In this document: in pieces, positions 92 to 64,000 of the stretch
How the letters are laid out: each line of letters begins with the position of its first letter
Position numbering within the stretch: position 1 is the stretch's first letter
Assembly: GCA_045837725.1 (NCBI GenBank)
Contig: JBEWZL010000211.1
Coordinates: 1-64,000, forward strand
DNA: 64,000 nt
Direction of reading: 5' to 3'
Source: Vermamoeba vermiformis
Lineage: Eukaryota
Made by a program: the position numbers and the translations under genes
Notes under the pieces: model-generated
The model's database searches: none
What the model saw: the letters and a program-made list of their open reading frames with translations, nothing else
Told to the model about the DNA's origin: nothing

Positions 92-2171
92 TTAAGCCGG
101 GGGGGCGTGAGTGTCACCCTCATGCTTGGCCGAGTCGTTCGAGCTGAAGTGACCAGTGAGTACAACTGATTTGTTGGTCGAACTAACGCCGACAGAAGTG
201 TCGCTGCTGTCCTCGCCAGTGCCGAAGTGCACGCGACGCAACTTGGGGAAGAACAAGAAGAAGAGCACACTGCCGCCGATCAACATGATTGCAAAGCCAA
301 TGATACCAGCCTCAATACTGACGTTGTAGGGGATGATGAGCATGATGGCAATGGCAATCACACCGATGAAGACAGTGTTGTAGATAGCCCAACCGATCGA
401 CTTGGACTCGTTGTAGAGCTTGCGCTTGACGTTCTTGATCTTGTACGAGACCAACACACCGCACACGAGCAAGACTCCCTTGGTGCACAAGAAGAGAGCG
501 ACGGGCCAGACATCTTTGGATTGGCAAGTCAAGTATTCTTGAGTATCGCTGAGGAAGGTAGAAGTAGTATTGATGACAGGCTTGTACGGATCAGCAACGG
601 TCCAAGCGATGAGGATAGCGGATTCGATTAGAGTCATTGGAAGAACTCCCTTGAGAATGAGTTCCATGTTGGTAATCTTGAAGACCTTGAGTGAGCTCTT
701 GGAGAAGAGACGCCAGATGCGGTAGTTCTTCATAATCAGTGCACTGTAAGTAATACTGAAACCGAGACCGCCGAGCCAGATGCGCAAGTTGCACCAATTC
801 GCCGAAGGAACACCCATCCAGAAGAAGACGGAGATGAATGCCAGTACGCAGCCAAGGATGACGATGCTCAAGAAGACAGGTGACGAGGCACGGAAGACGA
901 TGTGACGTTGTTTGACTTGCACGTCAATGAACACGAGTACGGCGAGGAAGAGGAGGACACTGGCGACTACGATCAGCGCGATACCCAAGGGCGAGGAGTA
1001 GTCCACGAAGAGGTCTTGGATGATGTCAGCGCGGGTGTAGTTGCGGATCATATTGAGGCCCGAGAGTGGTGCTTTGAACGACAAGATCTGCGTGAGAGAC
1101 AAGCACGTGCCGTTGTAGAGGGCAGGAGCGACGCCAGGGAATGTACCACAGAATACTGAGTTTGGATTGGCGACGAGTAAGTTGTAAGCATTGGTGACTG
1201 TGCGACGAACGTTATCGGTAGTTTGAGTCGAAAAGTCACCGAGTGTCAAGAGACCAGTGTCAAATCCAGACCAAGTAGTGGTGTTGGCATAAACACTGAA
1301 GTTACCGTTGGGAATGGTGTTGACGATGCTGAAGAGTGGTGCTCCCCAGTCGTAGATGATGGAAAACATGCTGAGCTCACCGACCATTGTAGCGCTGATC
1401 AGCGATCTGACCAACGCTCGGGATGGACATGTTGGTCCAAGCTTTAGCAGCATCAGTAGATTGAGAAGAGGCACAGTCGACTTGATAGTCCTCAACCAAA
1501 ATTCGGGCAACACCGTCTTCGAGCAAATTAATAAGAATTGGATCGTATATAATAATATAGGTCCTATACTCACCTTCGAGCAGTGGGTCGTAGAAACTGT
1601 CGGTGAAAGTTGACAAAACATTCGCATCTGGATTGACTGAGCGCACGCCGAGGTAGAATGCGTTCTCGTATGACCAACTGAGTGGTTGAAGTCCAATACC
1701 AAGAAAAGCGACGTTGTTGGTTTGCGTTTGAATACCGCAAGCGATGCCAGCCAAGTAATAGCCTTCCCATGACTTCGGGTCGAGTTTAGCAACGTTAGCA
1801 CTACCAGTTCCAGCAACGGCGATGATTTTAATGTTCGCGTTAGGGTGGTCACCAGTGAACCGACTTTGCTCGTCCACATAAGCCGAAGAAGTGATGAAAG
1901 CCATGTCAAAGTCTTGCGCCACCAGATTCTGCAACTCGTTGTAGAGGTTTTCAACGGGGAAAGACTGGTACAAACGAGCAGTGACATTGAAGCCTTGCAA
2001 GAAAAGTTGTCGATCCGCGTACGCTCGTCCAAGCTCCAGACGATAGTTGTAGCCAAAATCGTTGATCGGATCTGAAAAGAATGCTGCCATTCTGAATTCA
2101 GAAGCCGCCCATGTATCACAAATAATCATGCTAAGCGCAATAGCGCCAAGAATGAACCTACTAAGTGTCAT
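92..2171 (-). CDS. Family-3 (GABA-B-like, Dictyostelium Grl-type) GPCR with N-terminal Bmp-like periplasmic-binding domain; one intron, one frameshift
   Basis: Signal peptide MTLSRFILGAIALSMII and Bmp-like motifs (INDFGYNY, WEGYYLAGIACG, ENAFYLG, SFYDP) lie in ORF 1377..2171. The 7TM part (RASSPVFL, CNLRIW, KNYRIWRLF, NESKSIG, FFPK) lies in ORF 92..2119. Intron 1517..1573; the frame switches at ~1388. Confidence 0.85.
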
Positions 2172-3254
2172 TATAATGACTTAGTATCTGAGTTGTGGTG
2201 TTCGAGTGAATACTCGTAAAGTTAATAACAAATAAATTAAACAAAAACAATTTTGATTCATGGCCGTGCCAATAAATTTCTCGCCTTTTCAAAACTTTAG
2301 TAGACAATTATGAATTTTGACGGAAGATCTGATCCGATTAAATTGCGAGAGCACATGCTAACATTGAGCAAAATGCCCATGCAAGGTTAACAGTTTGAAG
2401 ATAATGTCCCGTTTAAATGATTAAAGTTTCAAAGCCTTAGCTTGCGAAAAAAGAAATTATGTGAGCGATTTTATGTTCTAATTATGCGCGTTACTTAATC
2501 ATACGCTTGAGCGACAAAGAATTGCGTGTGATGTAGACTAATCTATGAATTCAATAACGAAATCACCAAATCTATCTGCGGATAGACGATCGTGATCACA
2601 GTTGCCTAATAAGTCATTGCAAAAATATTGGGATATACCTCGGGAGTATTCTGTAGGCGTCATTATTACGGTGCTCTTAGATCGAATCCAGCATCATCGT
2701 ACTGACGGAATTAACGCATTCAAAGCCGCCGTTTCATATTTCAATTTGTGAAAGATTTTTTTGTGAACGGACCGTACGGAAGCAAATTTAATACCCGAAC
2801 AAAGACTTTCCAACGCGGCTCGGCCAAGCGACAGTAACTTGTATATAATAAAGTGCATACATACCGCGGCTATGTGACGTGCAATTCCGTTCCGGCGGAA
2901 CAACAGACGGCTATTTTAATTGGTGGATCTCTCACGTGGCGAAATTCACCCCTTCTGTTCCGAATCTGTCAGTTTTGCCTCTTTGTGCGCACTATCTAGG
3001 CTTTGTGCGTACTACTAGGTAGTATGGGGGACTAGGTGCCTGCTTAAGAATTCGTTCAGTGAAAACTGTCTGGGGTTTCACATAGCCTGAGGGACGGTGT
3101 TTGTCGTTGAAAAAAAGACATGAAACAAATACAATTATTCTTCGTTCTTATTCTATAGACAAGACCATAGTAAAAACTATAATATTCTAACAAAGCCATT
3201 CGCGGCTAATCTGGATAAGAGTCGATACATCCAACTTTTTATTTCAATTACACT

Positions 3255-15128: not shown

Positions 15129-18100
15129 ATGGGTGATCACAAAGAGAGTAGTATTTATATATTAACCTTCGAGGATAACGGTGACCCTACCTTTCCCTTG
15201 GGAATTTTTGTTCCTAGAGATGCAACCCTGCGTTTTGTCCTCAAGGCAGGCTCTCGCATCTGCACTCTTTCACCTCAAGTAATGACAAATTATGCTTCAA
15301 ATAATGAGCAATTTACGAGAGATAGACTACATCCGGTAGCAAGGTAACTGTCAGACGAAAAAAATATCCAATTAAATCATTTCGTGTCAAAAATCACTTA
15401 TACCATTTACGTGCATATTAATAATTAATACTATATTAATAATATAATTTTACGAATTATTTGGAGCAATAATTGATTACGATTGCAGTGGCATGAAACA
15501 AACTCCAGAAGGCAATTGGATCGCGGATATTTACATTAGTAAAGCTGGCGCATATGATTATTTACTTAGCTGGACTTCTTCGGACGGCTCCCTCGTTGAA
15601 ATGGTATCGAAAATCAAATATTTCCGGCAGTTTTCTTCGGCTGCTCTTCTGCATCGAAATTATTTCCTTGATCAGCAATGCTGTCAAGTCTTATTTTATA
15701 TATGTATACAGTAGGCTGCAAATTAACCGAAATTTTAGGGCAAAATGGGACATTTTGTTGTTGATCCGCGCTTGACCATTGAACGGGAAGACGGAACCAA
15801 GAAAGAGCTACCACTCGATGCTATTTGCCTACAAACGCATTTAACAAAATTAATGGGCCCATTATCAGAATGGGAGGGTCACTTCAAATTGATGGGTGAT
15901 TTAGGCGCGTATTTTCGGATCATCAGATCTCAACGCCATTTTATTAATAATATTACTAATAGGCTATAATATGATCCACTTGACACCTATTCAAGAACTT
16001 GGCTCATCAAACTCAGCTTACAGCTTATACGATCAATTAACAGTTTATTCAAAACTATTCCCGAATGAGCCTAGAATTACAGGTTAGTTGACGATTAATT
16101 ATCCGCAATTAAGCTAATTCGTTAGCAGAGACCGAGAAGTTTTCGAGATTGAAGACATTTATTGATAATATGGAAAAGAAATACGGTGTAGTGGCGTTAG
16201 GCGATATTGTTTGGAATCATACTAGTCACGATACACCTTGGATTGGCGAGCACCCTGAAGCAGCTTATAATACAGATAATTGTCCTTATCTTAAGCCTGC
16301 AGCAGTTGTTGATATCGTACGTAATATCTAAGAAAATTAATTGGATCTTGCTAAGACACGTGGCTTTAGGCACTCCATAAATTAGCTGAGGACCTTGTAG
16401 CTGGAAAATATAATGCTAAGTACGGATTATATGACACTATTCGTAATGAGGACGATATTGGCAAGTTATGTACTATTTTGAAAGAAGAAGTACTGCCTCC
16501 TTTGAGACTATGGGAGTTCTTTATTATCAACGTTGAAGACGCTGTCAATGAAATGAGAGCTAGCATTAAACAGAGCCAGAAAGTGCACGTATTATTATTA
16601 TTATAAGCGGTTGCCTAACAAAATTTTTAGCGAGGAGCCTTATTACGATGTGGATCTGAACGACGACAATAAGCTTACTGAAAAGATCTTTAAAGAGGGT
16701 CTTTACTATGAATCTCATCGAGATAGATTCTCTATTAAGGTAAAGCCCTTGTTACATGTATTTAAGATTCTCCGAGAAAATTTGGCCAAAATATTTTGCG
16801 CTGAAATTTTAAATTCCAGTACGCGAGCAAGTTATTAATATTATTATGTTAGATCAAATTAGAATGTGCTCTTCGATTATTCAATTCGACTCCTTGCAAC
16901 GACCTTACCGATGGCGAGATTGATCGAAGATGCGAAAAGTACCAACGATTACTCGAGAAATTGAACTTGCCAATGTACCTGGAGGTCAATGATCATATTC
17001 AGTAAGTATAATACGATAATGAGAGCGTTAGATGCTGAATTATTCATCAGATCTATTATTTCGAACGTCGCATCCACTGTCCGTTACGAAAGATTAGCCG
17101 ATCATGGACCAAAGAAAGGACCCATTAAAAAGGGTCACCTCGTTGATCCTTACTTCCGAAGAGTTCTAACCAACAAATACCCTCACAAACAACGTAATAT
17201 TGGTCGTTATAGCAAGCACCGCCTGGATATCGATAAATTTAATGAAGAAGGCGTAACTTACTGCGCGCACAATGGTTGGATTTGGGGAGGTACGTAATGA
17301 CCATACCTTTATTGTACTATATGATTCTTATTCATTACTAGGAAATCCATTGTTTGATTTCGCCGGACCCGATTCAAAGTGCTACATCCGGCGTGAAGTT
17401 ATAATTTGGGGTGACTGTATCAAGTTCCGATATGGCGCTGGTCCAAGTGACAGTCCCTGGCTCTGGGAACACATGAAGGAGTACACGCAATTCATGGCTA
17501 AGATCTTCCACGGCCTTCGTGTAGACAACGCGCATTCAACTCCAATCCACGTGGCACGATATCTCATCGATGCTGCTCGAGAGGTATACATAATGATACC
17601 GATATGCCTATTCTTTATTCACAAGTTATTTCTATTAGGTGAGACCCGAGCTGTATGTGACTGCTGAGTTGTTTACTGGCAGCGAAGAAGTCGACAATAT
17701 CTTCATCAGCAAGCTGGGCATTAACTCGCTCATCCGCGAAGGAATGCAGGCTGGTGACCCGTGGGAGTTGGGTCGCTTAGTCCATCGTTACGGTGGTCGT
17801 GCTGTTGGATCTGTAGTCGAGCGATACAGTACCATGTACTACTCCAAAGAAGGCGATCAAAGCGGGTAAGAATAAGTTCAGTTAATCGAGTCATGAGACA
17901 TATTTAACGTGTCCCTTAGTGTCAACATGGCGCTCAAGCCTCGCATTCCTCCTGCTTTGTTCATGGACTGCACACACGACAACGAAGTTCCGAATCAAAA
18001 ACGATCTTTGTGGGACACTTTGCCCAACGCAGCGCTGGTAAGTATATGCTGGAAGGCATTGTCGTACGATACTAATGAGTATTATTAAGGTTACTATGGC

Positions 18101-21100
18101 TCGTTGTGCTATCGGTAGTGTTAAAGGCTACGACGCAATTTACCCGCAACGCATCGATTTGGTCAATGAAGCTAAGCTCTATCCTACTGACAGCATTGAA
18201 AAGCCTTTGCAAAACGAAGGTGTTTATTTCCCGCGCAAAATCTTGAACACGTTGCACAAGTAAGTGGCCGAATGAATGTCAGTAATTTTTCATATTAGCT
18301 AATATTTTTTATAGGAAACTCGAGGAAGAAGGATACACCGAGATTCACGTGCATCAAGAAGAGAACGTAATCACCGTGCAGCGACATAATCCGTCCAATC
18401 ACAAAGCAGTCTATGCTATCTGCCATACCGCGTTTTACGGCGGTGGAAACAATTTTGGCGAAACACCGAAATTCACCGTCAAAATCCCACACAAGGTCAC
18501 TAAACTGCTCTTCGCTGCTCAGATTGACGTAGAGATTTCGTTACGAGTAAGCGATAATAATCATAAAAAAGTACTTCGTACACAAGACCAAAGCAAAGCC
18601 TAACACTTGGACAGGCTGAAACTTCGGACCATTTGCAAGGCATTGCTTCAAAGTGCCGCATGATTGTTGACAGCGACGACTACTCGTCAGTGTTGACACT
18701 CAGAGAGTGCAATGACGGCTTGGCTAAATCATTTGAGGTCCACTTTAACAACTTCCACCCTGGTGCTGTCGTGTTTTTCGAAGCCACTCTCCACGGTAGG
18801 TTATCACCGTTCGTGAGTAAAGTTCGTCTAACGTATTGTCCTTGCAGACGATGAATCCCGTGCCTCAGAGGTGTTGTCAGGATTAAAGCACGATCACAGC
18901 TTGTTTGATCATTTCAAGGCCCTAGACTGCTTGGACTTCAATTACTTGTTGTACAGATGTGAAGACGAGGAACGGTACGTCATTAGTATATCCCTTATCG
19001 TGGCACGTGATTTATTGTAGTTGTTTCAGATCTGTGGATGGTAACTCCGGCGTGTATAATATACCCGAATATGGACCACTTGTGTTTGCTGGAATTCAAG
19101 GTTTTGTCTCAGTCCTGCAAACTATTCGCCTTAATAATGACATGGGCCACCAACTGTTCAATAATTTGCGTGCTGGTAATTGGGCCATGGATTACATTCT
19201 TTACCGCATTGAGCGACAGATGCGTGTCAGCGAATCCGAGAAAAACAAATGGACTGGCTTGTATAATTGGCTCAAGGGCTATTTCGAAGCCGTAAGTAAC
19301 ATTAATATATAGTAACCTTATAATTGAATCCTTTGTAAAGGCAAAGAAAATGCCGCGCTACTTGGTGCCAAAGTCGTTCGATCGGATCTTGATGAAGCTT
19401 TACCTCTCAGCTATTGAATATATTACTCGCGTATTGATGGTGCCGTCAGCCATGACTACGACACGGTATTCTTTCTTTCAACAGCTTCTGTTAACCTCCG
19501 TTCAGTTAGTCGCAAGTATGCCAAACAGCTGGGTTATTCATCCTAAACTCCTCTCGGTAAGTTATTATGCCTAAATAATACGCCTTCATATTTTGTGAGC
19601 ACGAAGAGAAAAGTTGGAAATTTTTCTATTGGTTCTGGTACGAAGCTACCATAATTTTCCTTGCGCAAATTTTGCTGCCTCTTCATAGGGATGAACGCGC
19701 GTGGCAGAGACTTGAGAAAGTGCTCTGTATTCGTGCTTCATCTTTTCTTTCGCCAAGTGGGTTGAAGAGGATTCTGATGGATATCCTATCATAATACTTC
19801 GATTTATGACCAGGGCTGCGGATCGTGGCCTGGAGTCATTTGTCACAGGTTGCACGCTACGCAATCACTTTCTTTTTTACTTTTGACACTCACCTATAAC
19901 TACTCGACTCAACTTTTCCTTTTTAGGAAGGAGAATACAAAGCTGCGATGGCCGCTGGTTTGCCGCACTTTAGCACGGGTTACATGCGCGTGTGGGGCCG
20001 TGACACTTTTATTTCATTGAACGGCTTGTTGATCCGTCCTGGAAGATATAAGGTACGAGTATAATAATCGTAAAAAGCATTCAGAGTCATAGCTCTAATG
20101 TTCGGTTTCATAGGACGCGCAAGATCTGATCTTAGGTTTTGGATCTTCAATGAGACACGGACTTATTCCTAACTTGTTGGATCAAGGATGGAATCCAAGG
20201 TAGTCCCTTCTATTAATATATCCAAGTAATCTAACCCGTGTTCTATTTTTAGATACAACTGCCGCGATGCTGTTTGGTGGTGGTTAGCTTCGATTCAGGA
20301 TTATTGCACCCACGCACCTGAAGGCGTTGAATTCTTAAAAACATCATTATGTCGATTGTTCCCATGGGACGACTATGATAGCCCTAATACTCCTTCAACG
20401 CACAAAGTCACTTTAGTGGATCTGATCCAGGAGGCAATGCAGCGACACGCAGCTGGTATCTACTTCAGAGAACGAAATGCCGGCCAAAAAATTGATAGCA
20501 AGATGACTGATGAAGGCTTTAATGTGTCTGTATCGTTGGATTATGAAACCGGATTCATTTCTGGTGGCAACAAAATGAACTGCGGCACGTGGATGGACAA
20601 GATGGGTGACTCGCAGAAGGCTGGAAACTTCGGATTGCCTGCTACATCAAGGTAAGATCATTTACTATACAAAACAAACTACTTTACACGCATTCTTGCG
20701 TTTTTCTCGAATTGAAATGCCGGATCCGATCTGATCCTATGCTTGGGCGACCTTAAAATATGTGGCGCCTTGTCTTTTTGACGACCTCGTATGATCCGAG
20801 ACAGTTTTTTCAACTCAAGGCGCTATAGCTTAGTGGTAGAGCACTGGTCTCATAAGTCGGTTGTCTTGGTTCGATTCCAAGTAGCGCCTAATTTCAATTT
20901 CTTTTTTGCTCTTTTAACTTGCGGTAACAACTTACATTCCATAGCTTTGAATATGACTTCGAATATTCGCAATTACGGCTTAAGTTGAGTGGATGTGACT
21001 AACTTATTTTTTCCTTTAGAGACGGAGCTGATGTTGAAATTATTGGCTTGTTGAAGTACACGGTGCGCTGGTTATCAGAGCTATCGGCCAGCAATCCTGC

Positions 21101-22177
21101 TTTGTTCCCGCACAAAGGCGTCAAGATCACGGTCAATCATGGTACGTCGCGTACTGGATCTTGTTTTTGCTTTAAAACGATTTACTTATGCTTGAAATAT
21201 AGAAAATCGGTTCTTGAGCTATGAAGAATGGAATAAGAAGCTTCAAGCGAACTTTGAGAAGTATTTCTACATCCCGTTGAACTCGATCGACGATGTGCAC
21301 CACGTAATCGACAAGAACACTGTGAATAGAAGAGGCATATACAAAGATGTATATGGATCGAATGACAGTTGGCACGACTATCAATTCAGGCCTAATCAAT
21401 GCGTGGCTATGGCTTTGGCTCCCGAGCTGTTCAATCCGGATCATGCTCGTACCGCACTGCATCTGATTGAGAATAACTTGTTGGGACCATTAGGCATGAA
21501 GACCTTGGACCCTAGTGATATGCGCTACAGACCTAATTACGACAATGGCGCTGATACTGAGGACTTTTTGACCAGCAAAGGATTTAATTACCATCAAGGC
21601 CCAGTACGTACTCTTAAATAGTATTATATGATAGGTGAAGGTAAATACTAACATATTAATATGAATAGGAATGGTTATGGCCCGTTGGCTACTTCTTGAA
21701 GGCTAAAATCCAATTCGCGGAAGAAAAAGTCAGATCTGACTTAGCCAATCATATTTGGTCAATTCTAAAGCCTCATCGAACAGCTATCGATCAGTCCTAT
21801 TGGTGCGGATTGCCCGGTAAGTCTTCTTCACCTTTCAGATCCGGATTTAAAGTCTTTACGTCCCACAAATAACTAACAGCTCATTCATGGGCCGCTATTT
21901 CTTTTCATTTATTCTAGAATTACATTGGGTGGAAAGTACAGGTGGGGTGCATCTCGGAGTGTCGAGTTGCCACCGCGTGGTCGCTTTCCATCCACTTTTT
22001 TTTGCTACATCCGGTTATAATTTTATTTATGTACAATACTGACGTATTTAATACTAAATAGAATTGACCAACTACCACGGCAGTTTCTGCAGAGATTCGT
22101 GTCCTTCGCAAGCTTGGTCCACTGGCACTATTATTGACGCGATTTTTGACTTGCATGCGCTCATGAAACAAAAATAG
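15129..22177 (+). CDS. AGL: Glycogen debranching enzyme (4-alpha-glucanotransferase/amylo-1,6-glucosidase), many exons
   Basis: [131 protein letters not shown] and QAWS. Confidence 0.96.
19705..19878 (+). ncRNA. Candidate structured ncRNA inside AGL intron 19557..19926
   Basis: A series of hairpins with G-U pairs valid on the + strand (19705-19727 with a GAGA loop, 19764-19800, 19807-19838), a possible closing helix 19757-19764/19862-19868, then TTTCTTTTTT. The family was not recognised. Confidence 0.4.
20765..20908 (+). repeat. ~145-bp tRNA-containing cassette, copy 1 (in AGL intron 20652..21019)
   Basis: Identical to 44912..45056 except for one T indel and one T/C substitution. It comprises a 54-bp leader, the tRNA and a T-rich trailer. 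Confidence 0.95.
20819..20889 (+). tRNA. tRNA-like gene, anticodon CAT (Met by anticodon; atypical body)
   Basis: Cloverleaf: acceptor GGCGCTA/TAGCGCC, D-arm GCTT-AGTGGTA-GAGC, anticodon arm CTGGT-CTCATAA-GTCGG (three G-U pairs), T-arm CTTGG-TTCGATT-CCAAG, followed by a downstream T6. Confidence 0.8.
21861..21868 (+). promoter_or_regulatory. DUSE/USE-like upstream element TCCCACAA
   Basis: Matches the Dictyostelium DUSE consensus WCCCAYAA and ends about 60 nt upstream of the hairpin at 21927, the spacing known for DUSE-driven small RNAs. Confidence 0.5.
21927..22003 (+). ncRNA. Candidate 67-nt Pol III-type panhandle RNA inside the last AGL intron (21817..22061)
   Basis: Terminal helix GGGTGGAAAG/CTTTCCATCC (10 bp, one G-U on +), inner GGTGG/CCACC and CTCG/CGAG, followed by T8 at 21996-22003. 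It is a GC-rich island in an AT-rich intron. Confidence 0.55.
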
Positions 22178-24108: not shown

Positions 24109-26479
24109 TTACAGAACAGAGTATTCAATATGTTCGTCTTCAGGGAAAATGAACGGATTCACGACTTCTTCGATTAGTTGGGGCTCAGCGGCATTCATAA
24201 TTTGTTCCAAGAACGCATTAGCATCGTCATCGTGGAACATCATGTCAGGAGATAAGTCTTGTTGCTCCACTTCTGGATTTGGATCGGAGATCGGCGAGTT
24301 GCTATCTACAATTTCTGGGCTTGAGACGGAGCTGCTATTCAGTATTTCGACTATACTACTATCTCGGTTCATTTCTTTGTTGAATAGAGGTGCTGTATGG
24401 TCCACAAAGCCCTTGACGCTTCTTACAAAGTCTCGGTACGAAATAGCCTTTCCAAATTTGTTAATTGTTTCTCGAACACCCTTATTGAGCAAGGCGCTTG
24501 TAGGATGTCTATAACTGCTTTCTTCAAGTATACGCAATGACTACATAAAGTTAGATCATTAATTTTTTTTTTTCGGATCCGATGTGAGCTTACCAGATCC
24601 AACTCTTCTTGCCAATCATAGATTATACAGAGTCCGGTGATAACGGCCACAATGGTAGCAGACCAGTAGCTGCACACACAGATCGGTTGCCTGGCTGTTT
24701 CGAGCACACCTCTCACGCATTCAAGCATGAATTGTGGCTGGTTTCCAACGAAATAAATCAACGCTTTCGTGGCTTCCTGATAAACTTCCAAAATTTTTCT
24801 GCGATAATTTGTTAGCAGCCGCCACCTACAATAATAATATCCTAAATAACTAACCTCATTCTATCAGGGAACTTTTCAGTTTGTTTCAAAAGTTCGTCAC
24901 CTTGTTCGGCTAACGTGATCCAAGTATTGTACTGTTTGACATTTGCAGATCTATTCTCGTTGATATATTGCGCTGCCTCGAGTGTGATTTTTAGTTGCAA
25001 AATGTTGAGTTGATAGACGTAATTAGGCTCCTCGCCAGATAAACTAGCATTGTTACTCGAATAATAAAATTGATTAATTAACACCAGGGCCTGGTCTCTA
25101 ATAAAACAAGCAAAGTTAATATAACTACTAGTATTAACATATAATAAGGCTCACATATAACCAGCCCAAGCAAGCAGACAACCGTACGTAAAGTCCGAAA
25201 CTCGTTTAAGGTGCTGTGCTTGAGGTTTGTTGCTGAATTTTGACACGAAATTATCTGTTGACCGTCGTGCAATATCAACGTAAAACGTAGCCTTCTCGCA
25301 GTCTCCCATACTCTGAAAAATCAGATCCGTGTTCAGTCGTTACTTGGCGTGACTTAGTATTGTTATAGAGCTTACCATTTGAGCCTCTGCTATCATAAAG
25401 TGACTTTGGGCGATATCTGCACAATTACTATTATCGAATAGCGGACCCATGGCAGCTCTATAAAAAACAAAAATCGTGTCAACACCTCAGATCTACGTGT
25501 CTAGAAAAATCCAAGAATTCCTGAACTCACTTTGCTTCTTGCTCTAGCTGCTTATATAAAGTAAAATCCCCCGTATATGCTGAAGCACTTGCAAGAATAC
25601 TGTACATTAAAGCCTTTTGCGGCGTATAAACTGAGAATAAAAATATTAGATCCGGATTCAAAAGTTAACTTGTTAGCGAATAGCTCTTAAGTATAATAAG
25701 CTCTTACTTTTGCTCGTTTCCAATTCTTCAATGCTTCTAAATGGTGGTTTAATCTCGTACGAAGGATAGCCTCCCCACATGTAGATGTCGATTAACGTAT
25801 TAAACAACACTGAATTTGAAAGCTTGAACATTCCTCGCGGCTAATAAATATTAATTAATGCTATAATATGATATTATTAGAATATTTTGACGTACTTCGA
25901 CTGCTAATAAGCCTTCTGAAAATAGCTGGTTGTATTGTTGTTCCATTATTTGCGTTTTTTGCTCGTAAAATGATGCCATCTTTTTGTACCGCTCAATTTC
26001 ATCTTCCATTTTTTTAATATCATCGAGAACAGGCACTTTGCCTAAAAAGGAAAAATTAATACTGCGATCCAAAAACTCTGTGCGTGAGCAACGTAAGTAT
26101 GGATTCAAATATAACGTACCTCCTCTTGGACCTCGTTTTTTAGGACCTTTTGCGTAAATGCAAGGAATATTTCGTTCGATACACAGACTGCACGTGGGTT
26201 TTTTGCGATCGCCTGTCGCGTGTATTAATTAATGGAAATAATACGTGCGAAAATAATAATATTTAAAATATATTGATATAATAGGTGCTTTTTGAATCCT
26301 TTCTCATGCAAATCCACAAATAAAATTTCAAAAAGTAATTTGCGGATTCGTCGTGCCCGTTTAATTGATATCTTACATTTAGTGTGCCATTTTCTACAAT
26401 TAATACATGTCAGCTCTTTCTGCGCTTTCGGTTTTGCCCCGACCTCAGTCGACATCTGCATTTCGGTCGCTAACGACAT
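24109..26479 (-). CDS. Zn(II)2Cys6 binuclear cluster transcription factor (paralog 1)
   Basis: CINCRKWHTKC|DRKKPTCSLCIERNIPCIY..PKKRGP, a coiled coil, and a middle region (QKALMYSILA, GPLFDN, GNQPQF) shared with the loci at 53586 and 56108. Confidence 0.88.
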
Positions 26480-44404: not shown

Positions 44405-46794
44405 TTAGTTGCGCATCCAAGCCTCGATATCTTCGACTTTTCTGGGCACATCAGTCATATTTTCAACGCCATTAGCAGTAATAATAACATCGCTTTCAAT
44501 TCTGACGCCACCAAACTCGTGGAAGCGATCCAACTTCTCTTTGACGATAAATTGCGACAAGTTCGCGTTATTGTACAGCTCGTGCAACAAGGGCTTAATG
44601 AAGTAAACGCCAGGCTCGACAGTGATGACCATGCCTTCCGCCAACACGCGACCACATCTCAATCTAACGAGTAGGTGCTCCGTTAGTATAATGCATATGA
44701 TACTAGTATTATATATTTACGTACTTGTTGAGACCAGGCTCCTTGCTACGAGTTTGACCGCCAGGATAGCCACCGACATCGTGAGTATCCAGACCCAAAA
44801 AGTGACCCAGACCGTGAGGCATGAAGTACGAGGCTAATGCATACAATGTCTATTAGAACTTGATTGACAATAATAAGCATGATAATTAAGACTAGTAGCA
44901 GTCCACTAGCAGCGCCTTTGTCTTTTTGACGACCTCGTATGATCCGAGACAGTTTTTTCAACTCAAGGCGCTATAGCTTAGTGGTAGAGCACCGGTCTCA
45001 TAAGTCGGTTGTCTTGGTTCGATTCCAAGTAGCGCCTAATTTCAATTTCTTTTTTGATTTTTGGTTTTCGTTGCACACAAACAAGCTGCTAAAACTTTCT
45101 GCTATTTTTCGCAGATTCGAAACGCAAAATTATTATTGCTTACCGAGATTAGCTTCAACCATCTTCTCAACATCGCCCTTCAAGAATCCAAAGCGCGTGA
45201 GCTCGGTTAAAATGACGCGTTCTTTGATACAATGTCAGATCCACATTTTTTGCTAGCGAAATGGTTCACATACCAGCCAATCTGTGCATCGAAGGCCAAC
45301 TAACACCAGGCTTAGCAGCAGCTATAACAGCATCGTGAGCTGCCAACACGGTTTCGTAGACCTCGCGTTGATCTTGCGTGAACTTTCCATTAGCAGGGAA
45401 GCAGACGGTAATATCAGAGGCGTAGCAATGATACTCAACACCCATATCAAACAACAACATATCACCGTCCTTAACGACCTAAATGAAGTCTTGTTAGTAC
45501 GTACAGCCGCAAAAAAAATATCGTGCAACGTACTCTCTTGTTGGGAGCACCGGCGTGGCCGTAATGCAAAACAGCGCCGTTAGGACCACTGCAGCAGATG
45601 CAAGTGTAGGAAGGGTTACGGCAACCACCTAGTCTATCGTTAGAGACGAATACTAATGTTGACTTAACTCGTCGAACATACCCTTCGAGTAGCTCTCGTG
45701 CAAGAACAAACTCTCCATTTGATACTCAGTGACGCCTGGCTTCATGGCCTTAATAACTGCACGGTGAGCATTGCTATAGAAATATGTTAGAACGAGAGAA
45801 ATAGCCGTGCTGGTGGTACGTACCTGCTGACTTTGGCAGCGTATCTCATAACCTCTAATTCTTCAGGAGTCTTAATCACTCTCAACTCGACGATTTCGGG
45901 GAATAACAAGGTCTCGTCGGTCTTGAACTGTTCGATGCCGTTGAACTTAGCAGGGACAGCTTCATTGCCTAGAGTAGTGAATGGAAGTGAGCAGATCGCA
46001 CGCGCTTGATACGCATTTTATATGCTTACCGCTATCAGTATTAAGACCCTTAAGAGTAAGAATCAATTGAACGTTGTTATCTAAAGGAATATTAGAGTTG
46101 GAATTTAGGAAACAGATCTAGGCACGCACCAGTCAAGTACTGAGAGATCTCGTCTGTGTAATAGGCCTCGTCGACTTCGTAGTGCTTAACATAGTATGAT
46201 GGAGGATAAATCTACGATAATGGTATTAATAACTGCTTAGAGGTGCTTCACCAAGCTCGTACTTCACCCATCCAGATTGCGTATGACTCGGGCAAACGAG
46301 GAATGAACAGGACTGATTTATTTCTGCATAATATTAATTTAATTAATTGCACGATAATTATCAATATAAGTGTTAATAGGTTACCTGGTAATGTCAATCA
46401 AACCATAGAAACCTGGTTCGCAAACTCCAAATGCCCATTGAAAGTAGCTTTCTTGACGGAACAAAACCTCGTGGTCAGTGTCGTACTATAATAATCAATA
46501 CATAATTATTATTAATTTCTAAAAGATACCAGAAACGTAACGTGCAAATCCAAACCAAATAATCTCAAAAATCCAATTTAGCTGATAAATTAATTTTAAA
46601 ATTTATATTATAATATTTACCAGTGTCTGAGCTTCGCCTCCTTGCAAAAGAATAACAGATTTAGGCAGCTCCTTAGCTTGGAATTTTTCAATCAATCTAA
46701 CACGATTCTTCGCGTGCAAAGACATAGGCACTTTGAGCGTGTTTTGACCTTGCCAAAAATAGGCCTTTCCAGTTTGAGGATCAATGTACGACAT
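44405..46794 (-). CDS. PEPD: Xaa-Pro dipeptidase (prolidase, peptidase M24B)
   Basis: [69 protein letters not shown] and GGVRIESD. Confidence 0.95.
44912..45056 (+). repeat. ~145-bp tRNA-containing cassette, copy 2 (antisense inside PEPD intron 44834..45143)
   Basis: Near-identical to 20765..20908. Confidence 0.95.
44967..45037 (+). tRNA. tRNA-like gene, anticodon CAT (second copy)
   Basis: Same cloverleaf as 20819..20889. The anticodon stem is CCGGT/GTCGG, where the T/C difference converts a U-G pair to C-G. Confidence 0.8.
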
Positions 46795-53585: not shown

Positions 53586-55776
53586 ATGTCATCTGCCAAA
53601 GATAATCGTAGAAATACTCTCGAATTATCGTGTATTAATTGTAGAAAGTGGCATAGCAAATGTAAGGAAACAAATCACTGAATTAATTAAATTATACCTT
53701 AATTAATAATATTTGCCTTTTAAAATACTCTCTCGCATAATAACAATACATTGGTTGTCAATATCTTTAATTTAATTTCTTTAAAAGCCCTCGATTTACA
53801 ATTTAATTTAGGCGATCGGAAGAAACCGACATGTAGCTACTGCATTGAACGCAATATAGCTTGTGTGTACGATAGGCCGCCTAAGAAACGGGGTCCTCGA
53901 GATGGTAAGCCAATTAAACATACGGATGGTGAGTTCTAATTTCTTCCTAAAGCAAAAACCGAGATGCAAGAGGAAATGGAAGTAATCAAAGCAGAAGTAG
54001 AAAAATATACGCAAGCAGCGATATATTGGCAAGCAAAGGCTCGTACAGCGGAACAACAACGGCGAGAAATGCTTTTGTGTTTTACTGGCGGACATCCAGA
54101 AGTAAGTTCTTACCTCAAACCTTTTACATTGTTACTAAATATACGGTAATAGTCGCGAGAGACATTTAAACTCAATAATTCAACGGTTTTTTATTCGCTG
54201 GTGGACATGTACATGTTAGAAGCTTTTCCATCGTACGGAGTCAAACCGCCGTTCAATACTCTCGAAGAATTTAATAACGCCTTGGGTATGTAAATTAAGC
54301 CTATATTTAGTTATAATATTTAACGATGTATTAGACTATTCCCCTCAAAAAGGATTAATGTTCAGTATCCTCGCGAACGCATCTGCTTGCGCCGGCGATG
54401 CAAAGTTACAAGAGCAGTTAGAGTTCGAAACTAAGTACGAATTTATAAAAGGTGCCAAGTAGAATAATATTAATATGAACATATTATATAGAGCGACATT
54501 AGGACCGTTGTTTGATAACAGCAATCACCATGACATACCGATCACTCATTTTCTGATGTCTGAAACCGCTCTCGTAAGTCGCTTCTATAATAGTGGAAGA
54601 TGATGTTAATATGATACTAATATAATATTAACTAGACTATCGGAGATAGAGAAAAATGGATTTTTTATTTTGACATAGCAAGAAGATCCGCCGATAACTT
54701 TGTCAAAAAGTTTCAACATAAAGAAGAAGCTTATCGACTATCAAAAATGACTAAGTACCATGAAGCAGTATCATATGCGTTTGAAGGCAATTGGTAAGAG
54801 ATCCGTAATTAGATCGTCAAAGTGGAAATTGATTATTTTCGTATAGGGCAGCAGGATTGAAAATTATTAATGAATTTTTTAATTATTACGATGTTTCTCA
54901 TCCGAAGACTGATGCGACAATAATGCAGCAAACAGACAAGATGTTTATCAACCTCTTAAAAGTCATGTTCGAAATTGGACTTATGTTGAGCCAAGATGAC
55001 TCGCAGATCACCGTGCAACAGTTTAATACTTGGATTCTATTAATAACTCAATCTGAAAACATCTTGCAAGACATTAAAATACCAGAAAAACTAAGGTACG
55101 AAGATCTTGATATTGAAAAAGTACCAAATTGACGGTTATTTGGCAGGAAAAATACGTCAATGTTGAAGAGCTGTATAAAGACACTGCTTTATCATGCAGG
55201 AAGGCAGCCACACTTCGTTCTAGAAAATATTAGAGAAATTCTTATTGCTGCACGAGATCCGCTTTGTGCTGGAGGCAATTGGACTTCAAAGATCGTCATG
55301 ATAGTCTCTGGATTATGTCTATCTTATGGCTGGCAAGATGAGCTGCGACAGGTAAGAATCGATTTAAATTCATGATTTCCTAATTTGGAAATTCTTAGGC
55401 GCTCGAGATTTTAAAGAGCTGTAGTCATCGTAAGACTATTGCTATGGCAGCCCAGGCCATTGAAAATATAGTGACTCAATATGGTAGCGGTATTTCGTTC
55501 GTAGATTACGTTCGAATGTTGAGCAGTTTTTTCGATCGACGAAGCCCAAATCCGCAAGTCAGTCACGGTGTCATCAGCGTATCTCATCACGGAGAGTTTG
55601 TATATACTCAGTCATCGAGCGACTCTAACAGTCCTGTAAGTCAAGAAGGTAGTGACGGTGCGTCTATGGAAGATTTTCAAGCGAACACATCCGATCTGAC
55701 GCAGGCGTCAGAATACTTGTTGGAGCCTGTACTGACTTCGGATATAGATATAGCTAATTTTAACTTTAGCGAATAA
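53586..55776 (+). CDS. Zn(II)2Cys6 transcription factor (paralog 2)
   Basis: CINCRKWHSKC|DRKKPTCSYCIERNIACVYDRPPKKRGP, with the same exon pattern as 24109..26479. Confidence 0.88.
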
Positions 55777-59089: not shown

Positions 59090-62000
59090 ATGTTCAAACC
59101 GCCAATCCTAGTAATTTTATTATTATTAATTTTAAATGAATATTCTCTCGGACAAGTAGCTTATGAAACAGCACACCTTTCATCTGCAAGAAAAGGAATC
59201 GCATCTGTGGAAGCTGACGGATTGATTTATTTTGCTGGTGGATTTGCTTTCAACGAGTTTCCTGCTTCAAAAATACTCGATATTTATGATACAATTAATG
59301 GAAATTGGAGCGCTACAGTACTTCCAGCAGCACGAAGTTACATTACAACTTTAGTGGTCGATCCGAATATTTATTTTATTGGTGGAAGCGATTGGATTAA
59401 TATTCCGTATACTTATTCAACGACACTACGAGATTTTGTGCCTCTTGTAAATTCATCTGGCCCGACAGTTCGTGCCCCGATCCAGATCACACAACTGAAC
59501 TCAACATTAGTACTTGTGGGCGAATTCTCTGTGGACTTTTTGGACTTAATTTCACTCGAATGGAGCTACAGTAATGAATTAACGAGCTTAATCGTGCAAA
59601 ATCCTTCAGCAAACGTCATTGTGGCCGAAGAAGTTGTCATTGTGATCAGTCCACTTCAGTCAACTAGTGCTTGGGTCTATGACCTCAAAACAAAGAATGT
59701 AGCTGAATATACGAACAAGCTTGACGGCTTCTCTTCGCCGTTAACGCAATCTGAAGGATCAAATAGCGTGGTGTTCTTGGTGTTCAACGACAAGTGCCTG
59801 CTTTACAACGTCGCGAAGAAGGACTGGCGAACCTATAATACGACAAATATTCGCGTTGTTACTCACACTGGCGACTACTCTTATGTCCTCGTAGATACAG
59901 TCTATGCTGACAATTGGAACGGATCTGCCCCTGCGACACTGACCACAAGTTACACGTACGCAGCTTCCTTTGGTCCCTACATTGCACTGTACAATGCCCA
60001 GGTCTTCACGCTATACACGAACGATATGAAGTATCACGGCTCCATTTCGTACCTTACTGCTGAAGTGAACTTTGACATGGGTGTGGCGTGGGGCAGCGAC
60101 CGATTCGTGTTCCGTAACTCCGCGATGATGACAATTTTAAACGCTAACGGCATGAATACCACGTCGGAGGGTCCTTTCGGTCCGTCTCTATCAAGAATTT
60201 TTGTCTACGATGACACGACGTTGCTCCTGTTACAAGACTCTTTTCTACACACATATGTGAACGGCGCTGGCCTTACGTTAACTAAAGCAGTCCAATTCGC
60301 ACCAACCTATCTCGTTGGAGATCAAATGCTCACATTAAAACGATCATTCAAGATCCAAGATCGGCAGAGCTCACCTCCGACTTTTCGACCGGCTTCACCA
60401 ACACAACTCTCGTTTCTCAGAAAGGAAATTCCTTCGTGACCGTGTTGCCAACTCCAACGCACGTGTTCTACGAGGCTATGGACGTGTACAATTATAGAAC
60501 TGGTGAATGGACCAATGGCACCGTAGTACCCGTAGAACTGTTCCAAACGGAAACGAACGGCCCTGTTCCGATCACGTTCCTTCCCAGCGCTGTCATTCGC
60601 GACGAGATTTACGTGTGGAGACTCAACACGTTTGCCGTGTACAATGTCACTAAGCAACAATGGACCGTCTCTAACATCTCTGAAGTCACGATCTACCCGG
60701 TCTATGGCCAAGGCAAAATTTTCACGCCCGAACCTGTCATCAACGACGTAGCGTATTTGTACGCGTACCCTGGCAACAATTTTTACGTCGTTGAAAACAG
60801 CCAAGATTTGAACTGGCCCACGACATCTGAAGCGTTTGACAACACCGGACAGTATTCCTTCTCACAACGAGTGGTTTATAACGACAAGATCTACGCGCTC
60901 AGATTCACTAGCGGAAACATATACGATGCAATATTCAATTACAATCCTGCTACTAATATTTGGGACTTGACGATCTTGCCTAAACCAGTGCCGTATGCCT
61001 CGATGATGATTGGCGGAGATTTCCTGATTGTCTTCACGTTGAACTCGACGATCTTCTACTTGTCAATGTCGACAGGCCAGTGGGTCACAATAGATAACTT
61101 CTCGTACAGCTACTTGCCATCGACACGTGTCACGACGAGTACATCAATCATAATCGCTGGAGGAGTCGATCCACTCACGCATTTGAGCACTGATCTTGTG
61201 CTAATATTCGACATCAGTTCATTCGCCTTGCCTCCCGTGGCAGCCAATCAAATAGACGGACCTTCTGTACAATCAACTATTGAAGGACCTATCATCGCAG
61301 CTATTGTCGTGCCAATTGTTGTCGTTGTAGCGGCTGGCGTGGCGGTCCTAATTGTGCTCATACGCAGGCGCGACAAGAAGAGCAAGAGCAGCGTGTCGAT
61401 GGTTGGATTGGAAGCAAAGCACGGACAGTGGTTCACGCCATTCAGCGACATTCAGTTCGGTGATCAGCTCGGTCAAGGAGCGAACGGTCAAGTGTTCAAA
61501 GGTCGTTGGAACAACACTGAAGTCGCATTGAAAGTGAGTATGACACAAGCAAACACGAGCGTCATCTCAGAACTGTCACTGATGATCAACATGCGACCAC
61601 ATCCAAACATTGTTCAACTTCTTGGTTTCAGTGTGCATCCAGAGACCAATAGTATCATCTTGATCCTCGAATACTGCAATGAACGATCGTTGAGTGGTGT
61701 TCTATTTGACACCAACGAAGCGATTGAAATGGAAAAGAAGCTGTCGTGGATCAAGGGTGTTGCCCGAGGCATCAGTCATTTGCACTCGAACAATATCGTG
61801 CATCGAGATATTGCGGCGAGAAACATTCTACTGCGCAACAATGAAGCAAAAGTGACAGACTTTGGCATGAGTCGATTGGTCGATGAACAGCAACAACGAG
61901 GAACAACCAAATCCGAACTTGGTCCAATCAGATGGATGGCTCCTGAAGCGCTAAGAAGCAAAGAATACTCTACGAAGTCTGGTAAGGACCATATTAAACC

Positions 62001-62283: not shown

Positions 62284-64000
62284 ATATCTTCACTGTTGGG
62301 CAGTACTTTAGTTATTACAACAACAACGCCCTTCACGTGTACAATGGAACTTTTGTGGCCTCTATTCTATTCTCCTTCAATTCGAAGAATATTTTGGCCC
62401 TTGGATCCGCGTTAAGCACCGCAGACTACGTGTTTGCAGATGACAATGTAGTTTATTGGTTCTCAGCACAAAACAGAAATGTCACGTGGTTATTTAACGC
62501 GACTACCTCAGTTTTTCAGATCTTTGCACTTGACAGCAACCGAGCGGCTATTTTTGGCTCAGACGTGACAATGTACATTTATGACATATCACTACGAACA
62601 CTTTCAACGTCCTCGCCGGAGTATCTTCCTCTATATCTAGTTGGCGATCAATTCTTGTCGTGGTCAATGTCATTTTTGGCGTCAACTCCGTCCAGCATTT
62701 CAATGTTCACGAAGGATTTTTCCGCGAAACATTTAGTATCTCAATCGGGAGATTCACTGGTCGTCATGGCTCAATCGTCGAATCCAAAATATTACTCAGG
62801 CATGGATATATACAACTATAGGACCAATCAGTGGACCTTCAATGCGACAGACATGTCAATATTACTCGGTTCATCGTTTGGAACAAATCCAATATTTTTG
62901 CAATTTTTTGCTGCAGCGCTAATCAACGACGAAGTATACTTATGGAATCAAGCCAAATTTGCCATATTTAACTTGACCAGTACCCAATTTGTTTCGGTAG
63001 AAACCACATCCACGAACATTGACCCGTTATTCGGCGAAGGATCGATTTTTGCATTAGAACCAGTCATTGACAAGTCAATCTATCTCCACAGTGGCGGAAA
63101 TGATTTTTTCTATCAAATTGACAGTCAAACTTTGAACCAAACGACCACGGTCCCAATAGCTGCAAATGACGGAACTGGCCAATCACAATCACTCTTGCAA
63201 CAACGACTAACGTACAACAACAAGATTTACGCACTAAGATACAGTACATCAACGTTGCTGTACGATGCAATATTTTATTACGATCCAGCTGCTAGTCGTT
63301 GGACTCGACTTTGTTGCCATTTGCAGTTACGCATGCAGCAATGACAATCGCTGAAGATCTGATTGTAGTGTTCACATCCAACTCGTCGCTGTATTATTAT
63401 TACATACCCACCGGCGACTGGAACAAAATCGACTTCCTGTACAATTTTATTCCTTCTGTGGCGAGCGTCAGTGCCTCGAAGATCGTCATCGGCGGAGGTC
63501 TGGATCCGCTCACGAACACTTTCAACGATCAAGTCGTAGTGCTGAACATCACTCAATTGAGCTCTATGATGCAGACGAATACTCCATCGGTCAATCAAAC
63601 TACACCCTCCGCTGGTGGACTGGCCAGCGATAGTCCTATCATTGCAGCTATTGTCGTGCCAATCGTCGTAGTTGTAGCTGCTGGCGTGGCTGTGCTAGTA
63701 GTACTCATTCGCAAGCGTGACAAGAAGAAGAAGAACGACGTCACTACAGTTGGATTAGAAGCAAAGTACGGACAGTGGTTCACTCCATTCAGCGACATTC
63801 AGTTCGGTGATCAGCTCGGTCAAGGTGCAAATGGTCAAGTGTTCAAAGGTCGTTGGAACAACACTGAAGTTGCATTGAAAGTGAGTATGACACAAGCAAA
63901 CACGAGTGTAATTTCAGAACTGTCACTGATGATCAACATGCGACCACATCCAAACATTGTTCAACTTCTTGGTTTCAGTGTTCATCCCGAGACCGATTCA
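62256..64000 (+). CDS. Second tandem receptor tyrosine kinase, 5'-truncated, frameshift ~63306, runs off the window
   Basis: The ectodomain aligns to the first kinase (MDIYNYRT, QR..YN.KIYALR, GG.DPLT). The TM helix is closely similar and the kinase N-lobe DNA is near-identical. Confidence 0.82.

What the first reader, a model, noticed from the sequence alone, without database searches (positions are those of the whole stretch)
20765..20908. A 145-bp leader+tRNA cassette sits in introns of two unrelated genes (AGL sense, PEPD antisense)
Seen: 20765..20908 and 44912..45056 differ by one indel and one substitution. The identity covers a 54-bp 5' leader and the T-rich trailer, not just the tRNA. 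Both host introns (368 and 310 bp) are far longer than the typical local intron. The leader starts with (A/G)GCGCCTT, complementary to the AAGGCGCT that begins the tRNA, so it could compete with the acceptor stem. It also has a CTCG-TATGATC-CGAG hairpin. No target-site duplication is visible. Inference: a mobile tRNA-derived element (SINE-like) or a recently duplicated Pol III unit that lodges in introns independent of orientation.
Basis: partly seen in the sequence, partly recalled or inferred. Interest (0 to 1): 0.75.

Follow-up and report, generated by a model that had tools for sequence, protein, structure and literature searches.

The report
Duplicated methionine tRNA gene inside introns
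Two almost identical copies of an ordinary methionine tRNA gene, each copied together with its short promoter and terminator flanks, sit inside introns of two unrelated genes of a fungus-like eukaryote; this is a normal tRNA gene family being duplicated and kept uniform, not a jumping element.

Summary
The window has two intact tRNA-Met(CAU) genes that share 49-54 bp upstream and 19 bp downstream. They differ by one substitution and one single-base indel. One lies sense in a 368-bp intron of a glycogen debranching enzyme gene. The other lies antisense in a 310-bp intron of an M24 (prolidase-like) peptidase gene.

The SINE-like reading is not supported. A related organism (metagenome contig L002) carries the same tRNA in the same peptidase intron, so that copy is old. 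Within each lineage the copies at different loci are nearly identical. Between lineages the middle of the leader (9 of 15) and the trailer (4 of 18) differ. That is the signature of concerted evolution or lineage-specific re-copying.

The shared block runs from about -49 to the T6 terminator, which is one complete Pol III unit. There are no target-site duplications, no tail, and T5/T6 runs inside the leader. Contig depth suggests a few further copies, including one sequence variant and a third flank. The leader's GCGCC start and its hairpin are not conserved.

Verdict: an ordinary multicopy tRNA gene duplicated as DNA. Interest is low to moderate.

The parts
20765..20818 (+). Copy A leader (-54..-1). 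The part from 20769/20770 on (-50/-49) is shared with all cassette copies seen. 20765-20769 (GCGCC) is shared only with copy B.
20770..20790 (+). Upstream block -49..-29 of copy A. It is conserved between lineages (1-2 mismatches of 21) and is a candidate TFIIIB-side promoter element.
20819..20889 (+). tRNA-Met(CAU) gene copy A, elongator type (ARAGORN gives 20818-20890). A-box-like 20826-20836 and B-box-like 20868-20878, judged against recalled consensus sequences.
20890..20908 (+). Copy A trailer with the T6 run (20902-20907), the likely Pol III terminator. Identity with copy B ends at 20908.
20652..21019 (+). Host intron (368 bp) of the glycogen debranching enzyme gene. The tRNA lies in sense orientation.
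   Evidence: (X5 joint skipping 368, GT..AG)
44912..44966 (+). Copy B leader. It has one extra T near its start relative to copy A.
44918..44938 (+). Upstream block -49..-29 of copy B.
44967..45037 (+). tRNA-Met(CAU) gene copy B (ARAGORN gives 44966-45038). C at 44993 matches the relatives and the majority of contigs.
45038..45056 (+). Copy B trailer with the T6 run (45050-45055).
45088..45137 (+). Extra downstream block of copy B. It is shared with the relative's non-orthologous copy L001 but not with copy A (core 27-mer at 45091-45117).
44834..45143 (-). Host intron (310 bp) of the M24 (prolidase-like) peptidase gene. The tRNA lies antisense. The orthologous intron of L002 holds the same tRNA.

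Best explanation
These are two members of an ordinary nuclear elongator tRNA-Met(CAU) gene family. Each is a self-contained RNA polymerase III unit nested in an intron of a Pol II gene.

The shared 139-145 bp is the whole functional unit. It comprises about 49 bp of upstream DNA where TFIIIB would sit, the tRNA with its internal A and B boxes, and a 12-nt trailer ending in a T6 terminator.

The copy in the peptidase intron is the older resident. The copy in the debranching-enzyme intron arose by DNA-level copying of a short segment of it, or of a sister copy. The family is kept uniform within the genome by recent re-copying and/or ectopic gene conversion.

Shown: intact tRNA, nesting in spliced introns, orthologous conservation of one locus, and the within-lineage identity against between-lineage divergence.

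Inferred: Pol III transcription from about -10, the promoter role of the conserved -49..-29 and -13..-1 blocks, the direction of copying (B to A), and the copying mechanism. I put recent duplication against conversion of older paralogs at roughly 55:45; this is unresolved.
For: 1. The genes look functional. Rfam tRNA scores are 66-69 bits and the anticodon is CAT. By eye there is an exact match to the recalled A-box and B-box consensus and a T6 run 12 nt downstream.

2. Both host introns are real.

3. L002, a metagenome contig of a relative, has M24 peptidase exons on both sides that align to the window's exons. It holds the same tRNA-Met antisense in the same intron.

4. The mismatch table by segment reads:
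- A vs B: 0/21, 0/15, 0/13, 1/71, 0/18.
- L001 vs L002: 1/21, 0/15, 0/13, 0/71, 0/18.
- Window vs relatives: 1-2/21, 9/15, 2/13, 2-3/71, 4/18.
So copies at different loci share lineage-specific states, while positional orthologs differ.

5. Shared flanks have different outer ends in different pairs: -54 for A/B, about -75 for L001/L002 (score 50 vs 17.1, 0 of 500 shuffles), and -49/-50 for a variant and a third copy. L001 also shares a 50-nt block further downstream with copy B (score 65 vs 14.9, 0 of 500). This block lies beyond the Pol III terminator. Copying was therefore of DNA, in separate events, and all surviving copies include the -49..terminator core.

6. Copy number is that of a small family. 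Summed contig word depth over the cassette is 1428-3052 against 267-587 in the flanks (X2), and 490-1430 against 60-141 (X1). There is one variant cassette contig, 139 nt, spanning exactly 20770-20908 with 4 differences.

7. Literature: dispersed tRNA paralogs evolve concertedly, and intergenic conversion was shown in S. pombe (PMC4981973, passages read, citing Amstutz 1985). RNA genes nested in introns are documented in Caenorhabditis (PMC3342880, abstract start and passages read).
Against: - No genome was available. Copy number, contexts and boundaries of the other copies rest on k-mer contigs of two runs of one sample. The tool warns that this depth is not a copy number.
- Orthology of the debranching-enzyme copy could not be checked in relatives, so 'recent duplicate' against 'old paralog homogenised by conversion' is open.
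- No expression data exist. The one raw RNA run laid gave 7 reads, none in the intron, so transcription, start site and CCA-tRNA are not shown.
- L001 and L002 come from different metagenomes and may not be one species.
- A third flank carries a GTAAGT 28 nt upstream of its cassette. That would fit a third intronic copy and leaves some room for an intron preference that simple duplication does not predict.
- The strong conservation of -49..-29 has no known counterpart that I could cite for fungi.
Confidence: 0.78

Rival explanations
1. A SINE-like or otherwise mobile tRNA-derived element. In this reading the 139-145 bp unit is a non-autonomous element that inserts into introns in either orientation.
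For: - More than two copies exist.
- A variant contig ends exactly at 20770 and 20908, which implies constant ends with differing flanks.
- A third upstream flank has a splice-donor-like GTAAGT.
- Copies occur at non-homologous sites in two lineages (GDE intron here, CH/S1 intergenic region in L001).
- The literature notes that tRNA genes 'behave similar to mobile elements' (PMC4981973 abstract).
Against: - The tRNA is intact and is not at the 5' end of the unit.
- The leader holds T5 and T6 runs that should stop Pol III.
- A terminator directly follows the tRNA, with no body or tail.
- There are no target-site duplications and no inverted ends (one search lists no inverted repeat at the cassette).
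- The outer ends differ between pairs (-54, -75, -49), and one pair shares DNA beyond the terminator.
- The peptidase-intron site is occupied in a relative too.
- Depth suggests only a handful of copies.
Confidence: 0.07
2. Old, independent tRNA-Met genes whose flanks are alike only because selection holds a long upstream promoter and terminator constant, with no recent copying or conversion.
For: Two parts of the leader (-49..-29, -13..-1) are indeed conserved between lineages (1-2 of 21 and 2 of 13 mismatches). The block matches the expected extent of a Pol III unit.
Against: The middle of the leader (-28..-14) differs at 9 of 15 positions and the trailer at 4 of 18 between lineages, so these positions are free to change. 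Yet they are identical between the paralogs of each lineage (0/15 and 0/18 in both). A and B also share 5-7 further bases upstream of -49 that other copies lack.
Confidence: 0.05
3. Assembly artefact: one of the two copies was pasted in by mis-assembly of a repeat.
For: No contig of the DNA runs bridges the cassette with 31 or more letters on both sides.
Against: - Contigs join the GDE intron flanks to cassette sequence on both sides (20650-20798 and 20888-21047), in two runs.
- A diverged second version of the right flank also starts inside the trailer.
- The peptidase-intron copy is confirmed by an independent contig of a relative (L002).
- The spliced mRNA contig skips exactly 368 bases.
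Confidence: 0.02

Closest known systems
Small RNA genes (tRNA, snoRNA, snRNA) nested in introns of protein-coding genes, as studied in Caenorhabditis (PMC3342880; abstract start and passages read, supplements not seen)
   Same: A complete RNA gene lies wholly inside an intron of an unrelated host gene. tRNA genes carry internal promoters, so a duplicated copy can survive anywhere.
   Different: This is a fungus-like genome where the typical intron is about 50-65 bp. The two host introns are 5-7 times that length. One nesting is conserved in a relative, whereas the paper stresses turnover.
Concerted evolution of dispersed tRNA genes by intergenic (ectopic) gene conversion (Amstutz et al. 1985 in S. 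pombe, seen only as cited in PMC4981973; PMC4981973 abstract and passages read)
   Same: Paralogs at unlinked loci keep species-specific identical sequence, while positional orthologs differ between species. Orthology can be told only by synteny, as done here with the peptidase intron.
   Different: Here the homogeneous tract covers 49-75 bp upstream and the trailer as well as the tRNA. Conversion itself was not demonstrated, and recent re-duplication explains the data equally well.
tRNA-derived SINEs (general definition, recalled)
   Same: Contains a tRNA sequence with A and B boxes, is present in several dispersed copies, and is found in introns.
   Different: The tRNA is intact and functional-looking and is preceded by a shared leader. 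A terminator follows at once. There is no body or tail and no target-site duplication. Copy number is low, and one site is orthologously occupied.
Upstream promoter elements of tRNA genes (TATA-like and other 5'-flank consensus, reported only for some plants and S. pombe according to the abstract of PMC11547032; abstract start seen in a search listing)
   Same: Two short upstream blocks (-49..-29 and -13..-1, the latter T-rich followed by CAA) are conserved between lineages while the DNA between them is not.
   Different: The conserved distal block is not TATA-like. It has been seen only at tRNA-Met genes, and its function is untested.

Membership tests
Functional nuclear elongator tRNA-Met gene (Pol III type 2 promoter) | Cloverleaf that passes a curated tRNA model | tested here: met
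   Rfam RF00005 scores 66.2 and 69.4 bits against a gathering score of 29, full length 1-71. ARAGORN calls both.
Functional nuclear elongator tRNA-Met gene (Pol III type 2 promoter) | Anticodon CAT and no initiator hallmarks (A1:U72, A54, A60, three G:C pairs in the anticodon stem; hallmarks recalled) | tested here: met
   Anticodon is cat. In the Rfam register the gene has G1:C72, a T-loop TTCGATT, and an anticodon stem with G-U pairs (read by eye).
Functional nuclear elongator tRNA-Met gene (Pol III type 2 promoter) | Internal A and B boxes and a downstream T-run terminator | tested here: met
   TAGCTTAGTGG at 20826-20836 and GGTTCGATTCC at 20868-20878 match the recalled consensus. T6 lies at 20902-20907.
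Functional nuclear elongator tRNA-Met gene (Pol III type 2 promoter) | Mature CCA-bearing tRNA is made | not testable with these tools
   The only raw RNA run laid gave 7 reads, none in the intron. It is a poly(A)-type cDNA library by its label.
tRNA-derived SINE | Element starts with the tRNA-related head (the Pol III transcript equals the element) | tested here: not met
   49-54 shared bases precede the tRNA and contain T5 and T6 runs.
tRNA-derived SINE | tRNA-unrelated body and a tail after the head | tested here: not met
   A T6 terminator lies 12 nt after the tRNA. A/B identity ends at 20908. Downstream A vs B is not similar (score 15 vs 15.2; 274 of 500 shuffles as good).
tRNA-derived SINE | Target-site duplications flanking each copy | tested here: not met
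   None seen by eye at either window copy.
tRNA-derived SINE | Many copies, with presence/absence differences at orthologous sites | tested here: inconclusive
   Several copies by contig depth, plus a variant and a third flank. The peptidase-intron site is occupied in the relative L002. The GDE site could not be examined in relatives.
Intron-nested RNA gene | Gene lies wholly within an intron that is spliced out | tested here: met
   GDE: a contig of run X5 joins 20649/51 to 21018/20, skipping 368 bases with GT..AG ends, and the homolog-guided junction agrees. Peptidase: in-frame exon join and conserved exons in L002.
Concertedly evolving tRNA paralogs | Paralogs within a genome are more alike than positional orthologs between genomes | tested here: met
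   table. Orthology of winB and L002 comes from flanking M24 exons. Caveat: L001 and L002 come from different metagenomes.
Concertedly evolving tRNA paralogs | Conversion tracts shown directly (as against recent duplication) | tested here: inconclusive
   The GDE copy seems present on two diverged versions of the intron flank, which hints that it is older than its 0.7% difference from copy B. With about 33 unconstrained sites, however, the expectation is only about 2 differences.

The most novel reading that the evidence does not exclude
The -49 to terminator unit is a discrete, DNA-level 'tRNA gene cassette'. It is repeatedly copied into new sites, preferentially introns, by a templated-insertion or repair process seeded at the Pol III complex. 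Its conserved distal block (-49..-29, not TATA-like) is a lineage-specific, possibly tRNA-Met-specific upstream Pol III promoter element of a kind not described in fungi.
Probability: 0.12. Interest if true: 0.6.

Novelty: new member of a known kind. Interest (0 to 1): 0.3.

Why it matters
As it stands, this is a clean small example of how tRNA gene families spread and stay uniform. The copied unit is exactly promoter to terminator. One nested location is stable across species while other copies turn over.

It would matter more if the conserved -49..-29 block proved to be a real upstream Pol III element. According to the abstract of PMC11547032, 5'-flank consensus sequences of tRNA genes are known only from some plants and S. 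pombe. It would also matter more if a genome-wide census showed a true preference of new copies for introns.

Tried and rejected
- Earlier findings of the scan: nothing by sequence or by place. The 8 findings listed by words concern archaeal, bacterial or mitochondrial cases and do not bear on this one.
- Metagenome scan with a 23-nt leader string: 0 hits.
- RNA evidence: no RNA holder was listed for the organism in the index. The raw RNA run X21 gave 7 laid reads, 90-99% alike, all in exons. This says nothing about expression of the tRNA or of a leader RNA.
- My ab initio splice-path scripts mis-modelled several introns. They split both host introns through pseudo-exons, contradicted. I use them only for the short introns with consensus donors and rely on the homolog-guided junctions.
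- Similarity of copy A's downstream intron to copy B's or L001's: not above shuffles (274 and 399 of 500 as good). A hairpin I saw by eye at a similar place in copy A is in a different register, so I dropped it.
- Similarity further upstream of -55 between the window copies, or between window and relatives: none (200-487 of 500 shuffles as good).
- A Dictyostelium-style external B box downstream: considered from memory. The matches (TTCGAA) are weak, and I dropped the idea.
- MITE or foldback ends: one search found no inverted repeat at the cassette.
- Other RNA families in the GDE region: none at E up to 1, apart from the tRNA and a sub-threshold antisense hit on the tRNA itself (31.3 bits against gathering 65.7).
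- The -49..-29 block and the 27-nt downstream block occur nowhere else in the window.
- One Pfam call failed on wrong coordinates and was redone.
- Supplements of the papers were not available. Counts of nested tRNA genes in PMC3342880 may lie there.
Full report
**1. What is in the sequence**

ARAGORN finds two tRNA genes in the whole 64-kb window. Both are tRNA-Met with anticodon CAT on the + strand, at 20818-20890 and 44966-45038. Rfam's tRNA model matches both over its full length, at 66.2 and 69.4 bits against a gathering score of 29. These are the only two gathering-level RNA matches in the window.

In the Rfam register (20819-20889) the gene has G1:C72, U8, a D-loop AGTGGTA and a T-loop TTCGATT. 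It is an elongator and not an initiator; the initiator hallmarks are recalled and come from no call. The strings TAGCTTAGTGG and GGTTCGATTCC match the recalled A-box and B-box consensus. A T6 run follows 12 nt after the tRNA.

The two genes are embedded in a longer shared block, 20765-20908 against 44912-45056.
- A 46-nt leader core is exact in both, with 0.00 matches expected in 100 shuffles.
- An ungapped repeat search gives 98% over 145 nt.
- The only differences are T20845 versus C44993 and one extra T near the leader start of copy B.

**2. Where the copies sit**

- Exon translations around copy A hit GDE_C and hDGE_amylase on the + strand. Those around copy B hit Peptidase_M24 on the - strand (6 of 7 pieces hit).
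- A 92%-identical full-length debranching enzyme (P0001) was mapped on the window with tblastn. Splice junctions were then chosen by best protein fit. The host intron is 20652-21019, 368 bp.
- A contig in run X5 independently joins the two exons and skips 368 bases with GT..AG ends.
- The peptidase intron is 44834-45143, 310 bp. I joined ...CTCG and CCTCGTAC... in frame to give L-A-S-Y-F-M-P-H-G. The aligned ortholog supports this.

On intron length: of 15 debranching-enzyme introns resolved, 12 are 46-68 bp and three are long, at 245, 368 and 370 bp. Junctions in two stretches (16585-17341 and 17586-18090) were not resolved by this step. The two other long introns hold no tRNA and no other Rfam match at E up to 1. 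Long introns here are therefore not only a consequence of hosting a tRNA.

**3. More copies in the same organism**

No genome is held. I therefore laid Logan contigs of two DNA runs of one sample (X1, X2) on 20500-21200.
- Summed word depth over the cassette is 1428-3052 (X2) and 490-1430 (X1). The flanks are at 267-587 and 60-141. The tool warns that this is not a copy number. I read it only as 'several copies, not hundreds'.
- One 139-nt contig covers exactly 20770-20908 with four differences (20801, 20803, 20807, 20845). A contig that stops at both cassette ends implies that this variant has at least two different flanks on each side.
- One contig carries 255 unrelated letters before 20769. 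This is a third upstream context, and it lacks the GCGCC that precedes the block in copies A and B. It has a GTAAGT 28 nt upstream, which might be a splice donor.
- A second, diverged version of the right flank of the GDE intron (7 substitutions and 17 gapped letters over 20888-21047) also begins inside the trailer. Its depth and that of the window version add up to about the exon depth.
- A loose end behind 20907 resembles copy B's flank with 2 changes. The sample thus seems to hold two versions of both loci, each with the cassette.

**4. Relatives**

A scan of metagenome contigs with a leader 23-mer found nothing. A degenerate pattern from the tRNA found two contigs, each with one tRNA-Met.

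- **L002** carries M24 peptidase exons on both sides of the tRNA. These align to the window's exons. The tRNA is antisense in the same intron, which by my reading is 261 bp there. The peptidase-intron copy is therefore older than the split of these lineages.
- **L001** has the tRNA between a CH-domain gene on the - strand and an S1-domain gene on the + strand. I take the latter to be eIF2-alpha-like, by eye. This site is probably intergenic and is a different locus again.

**5. The decisive pattern**

All four leaders are 49 nt from the shared start to the tRNA, so they compare without gaps. Mismatches by segment:

| Pair | -49..-29 | -28..-14 | -13..-1 | tRNA | trailer |
|---|---|---|---|---|---|
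| A vs B | 0/21 | 0/15 | 0/13 | 1/71 | 0/18 |
| L001 vs L002 | 1/21 | 0/15 | 0/13 | 0/71 | 0/18 |
| window vs relatives | 1-2/21 | 9/15 | 2/13 | 2-3/71 | 4/18 |

Three things follow.
- Copies at different loci share their lineage's states, although one locus is orthologous between lineages. That is concerted evolution or lineage-specific re-copying. Both are known behaviour of tRNA families (PMC4981973, abstract and passages read; it cites Amstutz 1985 for conversion among unlinked tRNA genes).
- The spacer and trailer are free to vary, so identity between A and B is due to recent common descent and not to constraint.
- Two blocks, -49..-29 and -13..-1, are conserved across lineages whose intron DNA is otherwise unalignable. 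They are probably functional.

**6. How the unit was copied**

The outer limits of identity differ between pairs:
- about -54 for A/B;
- about -75 for L001/L002 (score 50 against 17.1 ± 2.7; 0 of 500 shuffles);
- -49/-50 for the variant and the third copy.

L001 also shares a 50-nt block about 30 nt beyond the terminator with the window's copy B (score 65 against 14.9 ± 2.4; 0 of 500). Copy A does not share it (274 of 500 shuffles as good).

Sequence beyond a Pol III terminator and upstream of any plausible start cannot come from a Pol III transcript. The copying was therefore of DNA, in separate events with ragged ends. The 'constant' core from -49 to the terminator is most simply what a copy must contain to remain a working gene.

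I saw no target-site duplications and no inverted ends.

**7. The leader-competition idea**

If the 144 nt were one RNA, its MFE would pair the GCGCCUUG start with the tRNA 5' end, but with z = -1.2. From -8 on, the fold is the acceptor stem and T-arm. Three things argue against a leader-containing transcript with a function:
- T5 and T6 runs lie inside the leader.
- The GCGCC is absent in the third copy and in relatives.
- The expected start is near -10 (established knowledge of type 2 promoters, recalled).
No RNA data bear on this question.

**8. Comparison and verdict**

The arrangement works like any intron-nested Pol III gene (PMC3342880 for Caenorhabditis). It evolves like other dispersed tRNA families (PMC4981973). 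It fails three defining features of a tRNA-derived SINE: head at the 5' end, body and tail, and target-site duplications.

What is mildly new is the documentation of a promoter-to-terminator copy unit, a nesting conserved across lineages in a short-intron genome, and a conserved non-TATA distal upstream block. [quoted passage not shown]

I rate it a new member of a known kind, with interest 0.3.

Noticed in passing
window 21920-22002 (+), inside the 245-bp GDE intron 21817-22061: A roughly 70-nt near-perfect hairpin (paired part about 21926-21994) followed by a T-run. MFE is -37.2 kcal/mol against -22.1 ± 2.95 for shuffles, z = -5.13, with 0 of 200 shuffles as good. There is no Rfam match at E up to 1. 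It could be an intronic small-RNA precursor or a foldback remnant.
   Followed up: partly
window 19557-19926: A third long intron (370 bp) in the same GDE gene, with no tRNA and no Rfam match. Its fold z-score is -2.41, with 2 of 100 shuffles as good. What fills it is unknown.
   Followed up: partly
window 20888-21047 and the flank behind 20907 (runs X1, X2): The DNA sample holds a second, diverged version of the intron flanks of both host loci. The GDE version has 7 substitutions and 17 gapped letters. The depths of the two versions add up to about the exon depth, at roughly 35:65. This could be two haplotypes or a strain mixture. The next intron (21142-21202) shows no second version.
   Followed up: no
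window 20846-20889 (run X2, record 12): A 91-nt contig shares the 3' half of the tRNA (2 differences, 1 gap). Its 5' half is unrelated and is preceded by a TTTCAAC-like motif similar to the cassette's -13..-7. It may be a chimeric or decayed family member.
   Followed up: no
window 20845: The T that distinguishes copy A weakens an anticodon-stem pair to U-G. It is not seen in any laid contig; all show C, as in copy B and the relatives. It is either a single-copy variant lost in contig building or an assembly error.
   Followed up: partly
window 20818 and 20889: In the Rfam register the discriminator base is U, and base -1 is A, so the acceptor helix could extend to 8 bp. ARAGORN's call is one base longer at each end. 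The same holds in L001 and L002.
   Followed up: no
window 20500-20649 and 21018-21141 (run X5): A run labelled as a different organism holds a spliced GDE mRNA contig with a single difference from the window. Several other runs with other organism labels hold 0.2-0.3 of the words. The organism, or a very close relative, seems to occur in samples of other species.
   Followed up: no
window 61288-61587 and 63635-63934; 60922-60963 and 63261-63302: Two direct repeat pairs with the same spacing of about 2.34 kb (89% and 81% identity). This suggests a tandemly duplicated gene near the window's end.
   Followed up: no
window 26365-26407 and 53631-53673: A 43-nt inverted pair, 84% complementary, 27 kb apart. 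It may be chance or a small repeat.
   Followed up: no
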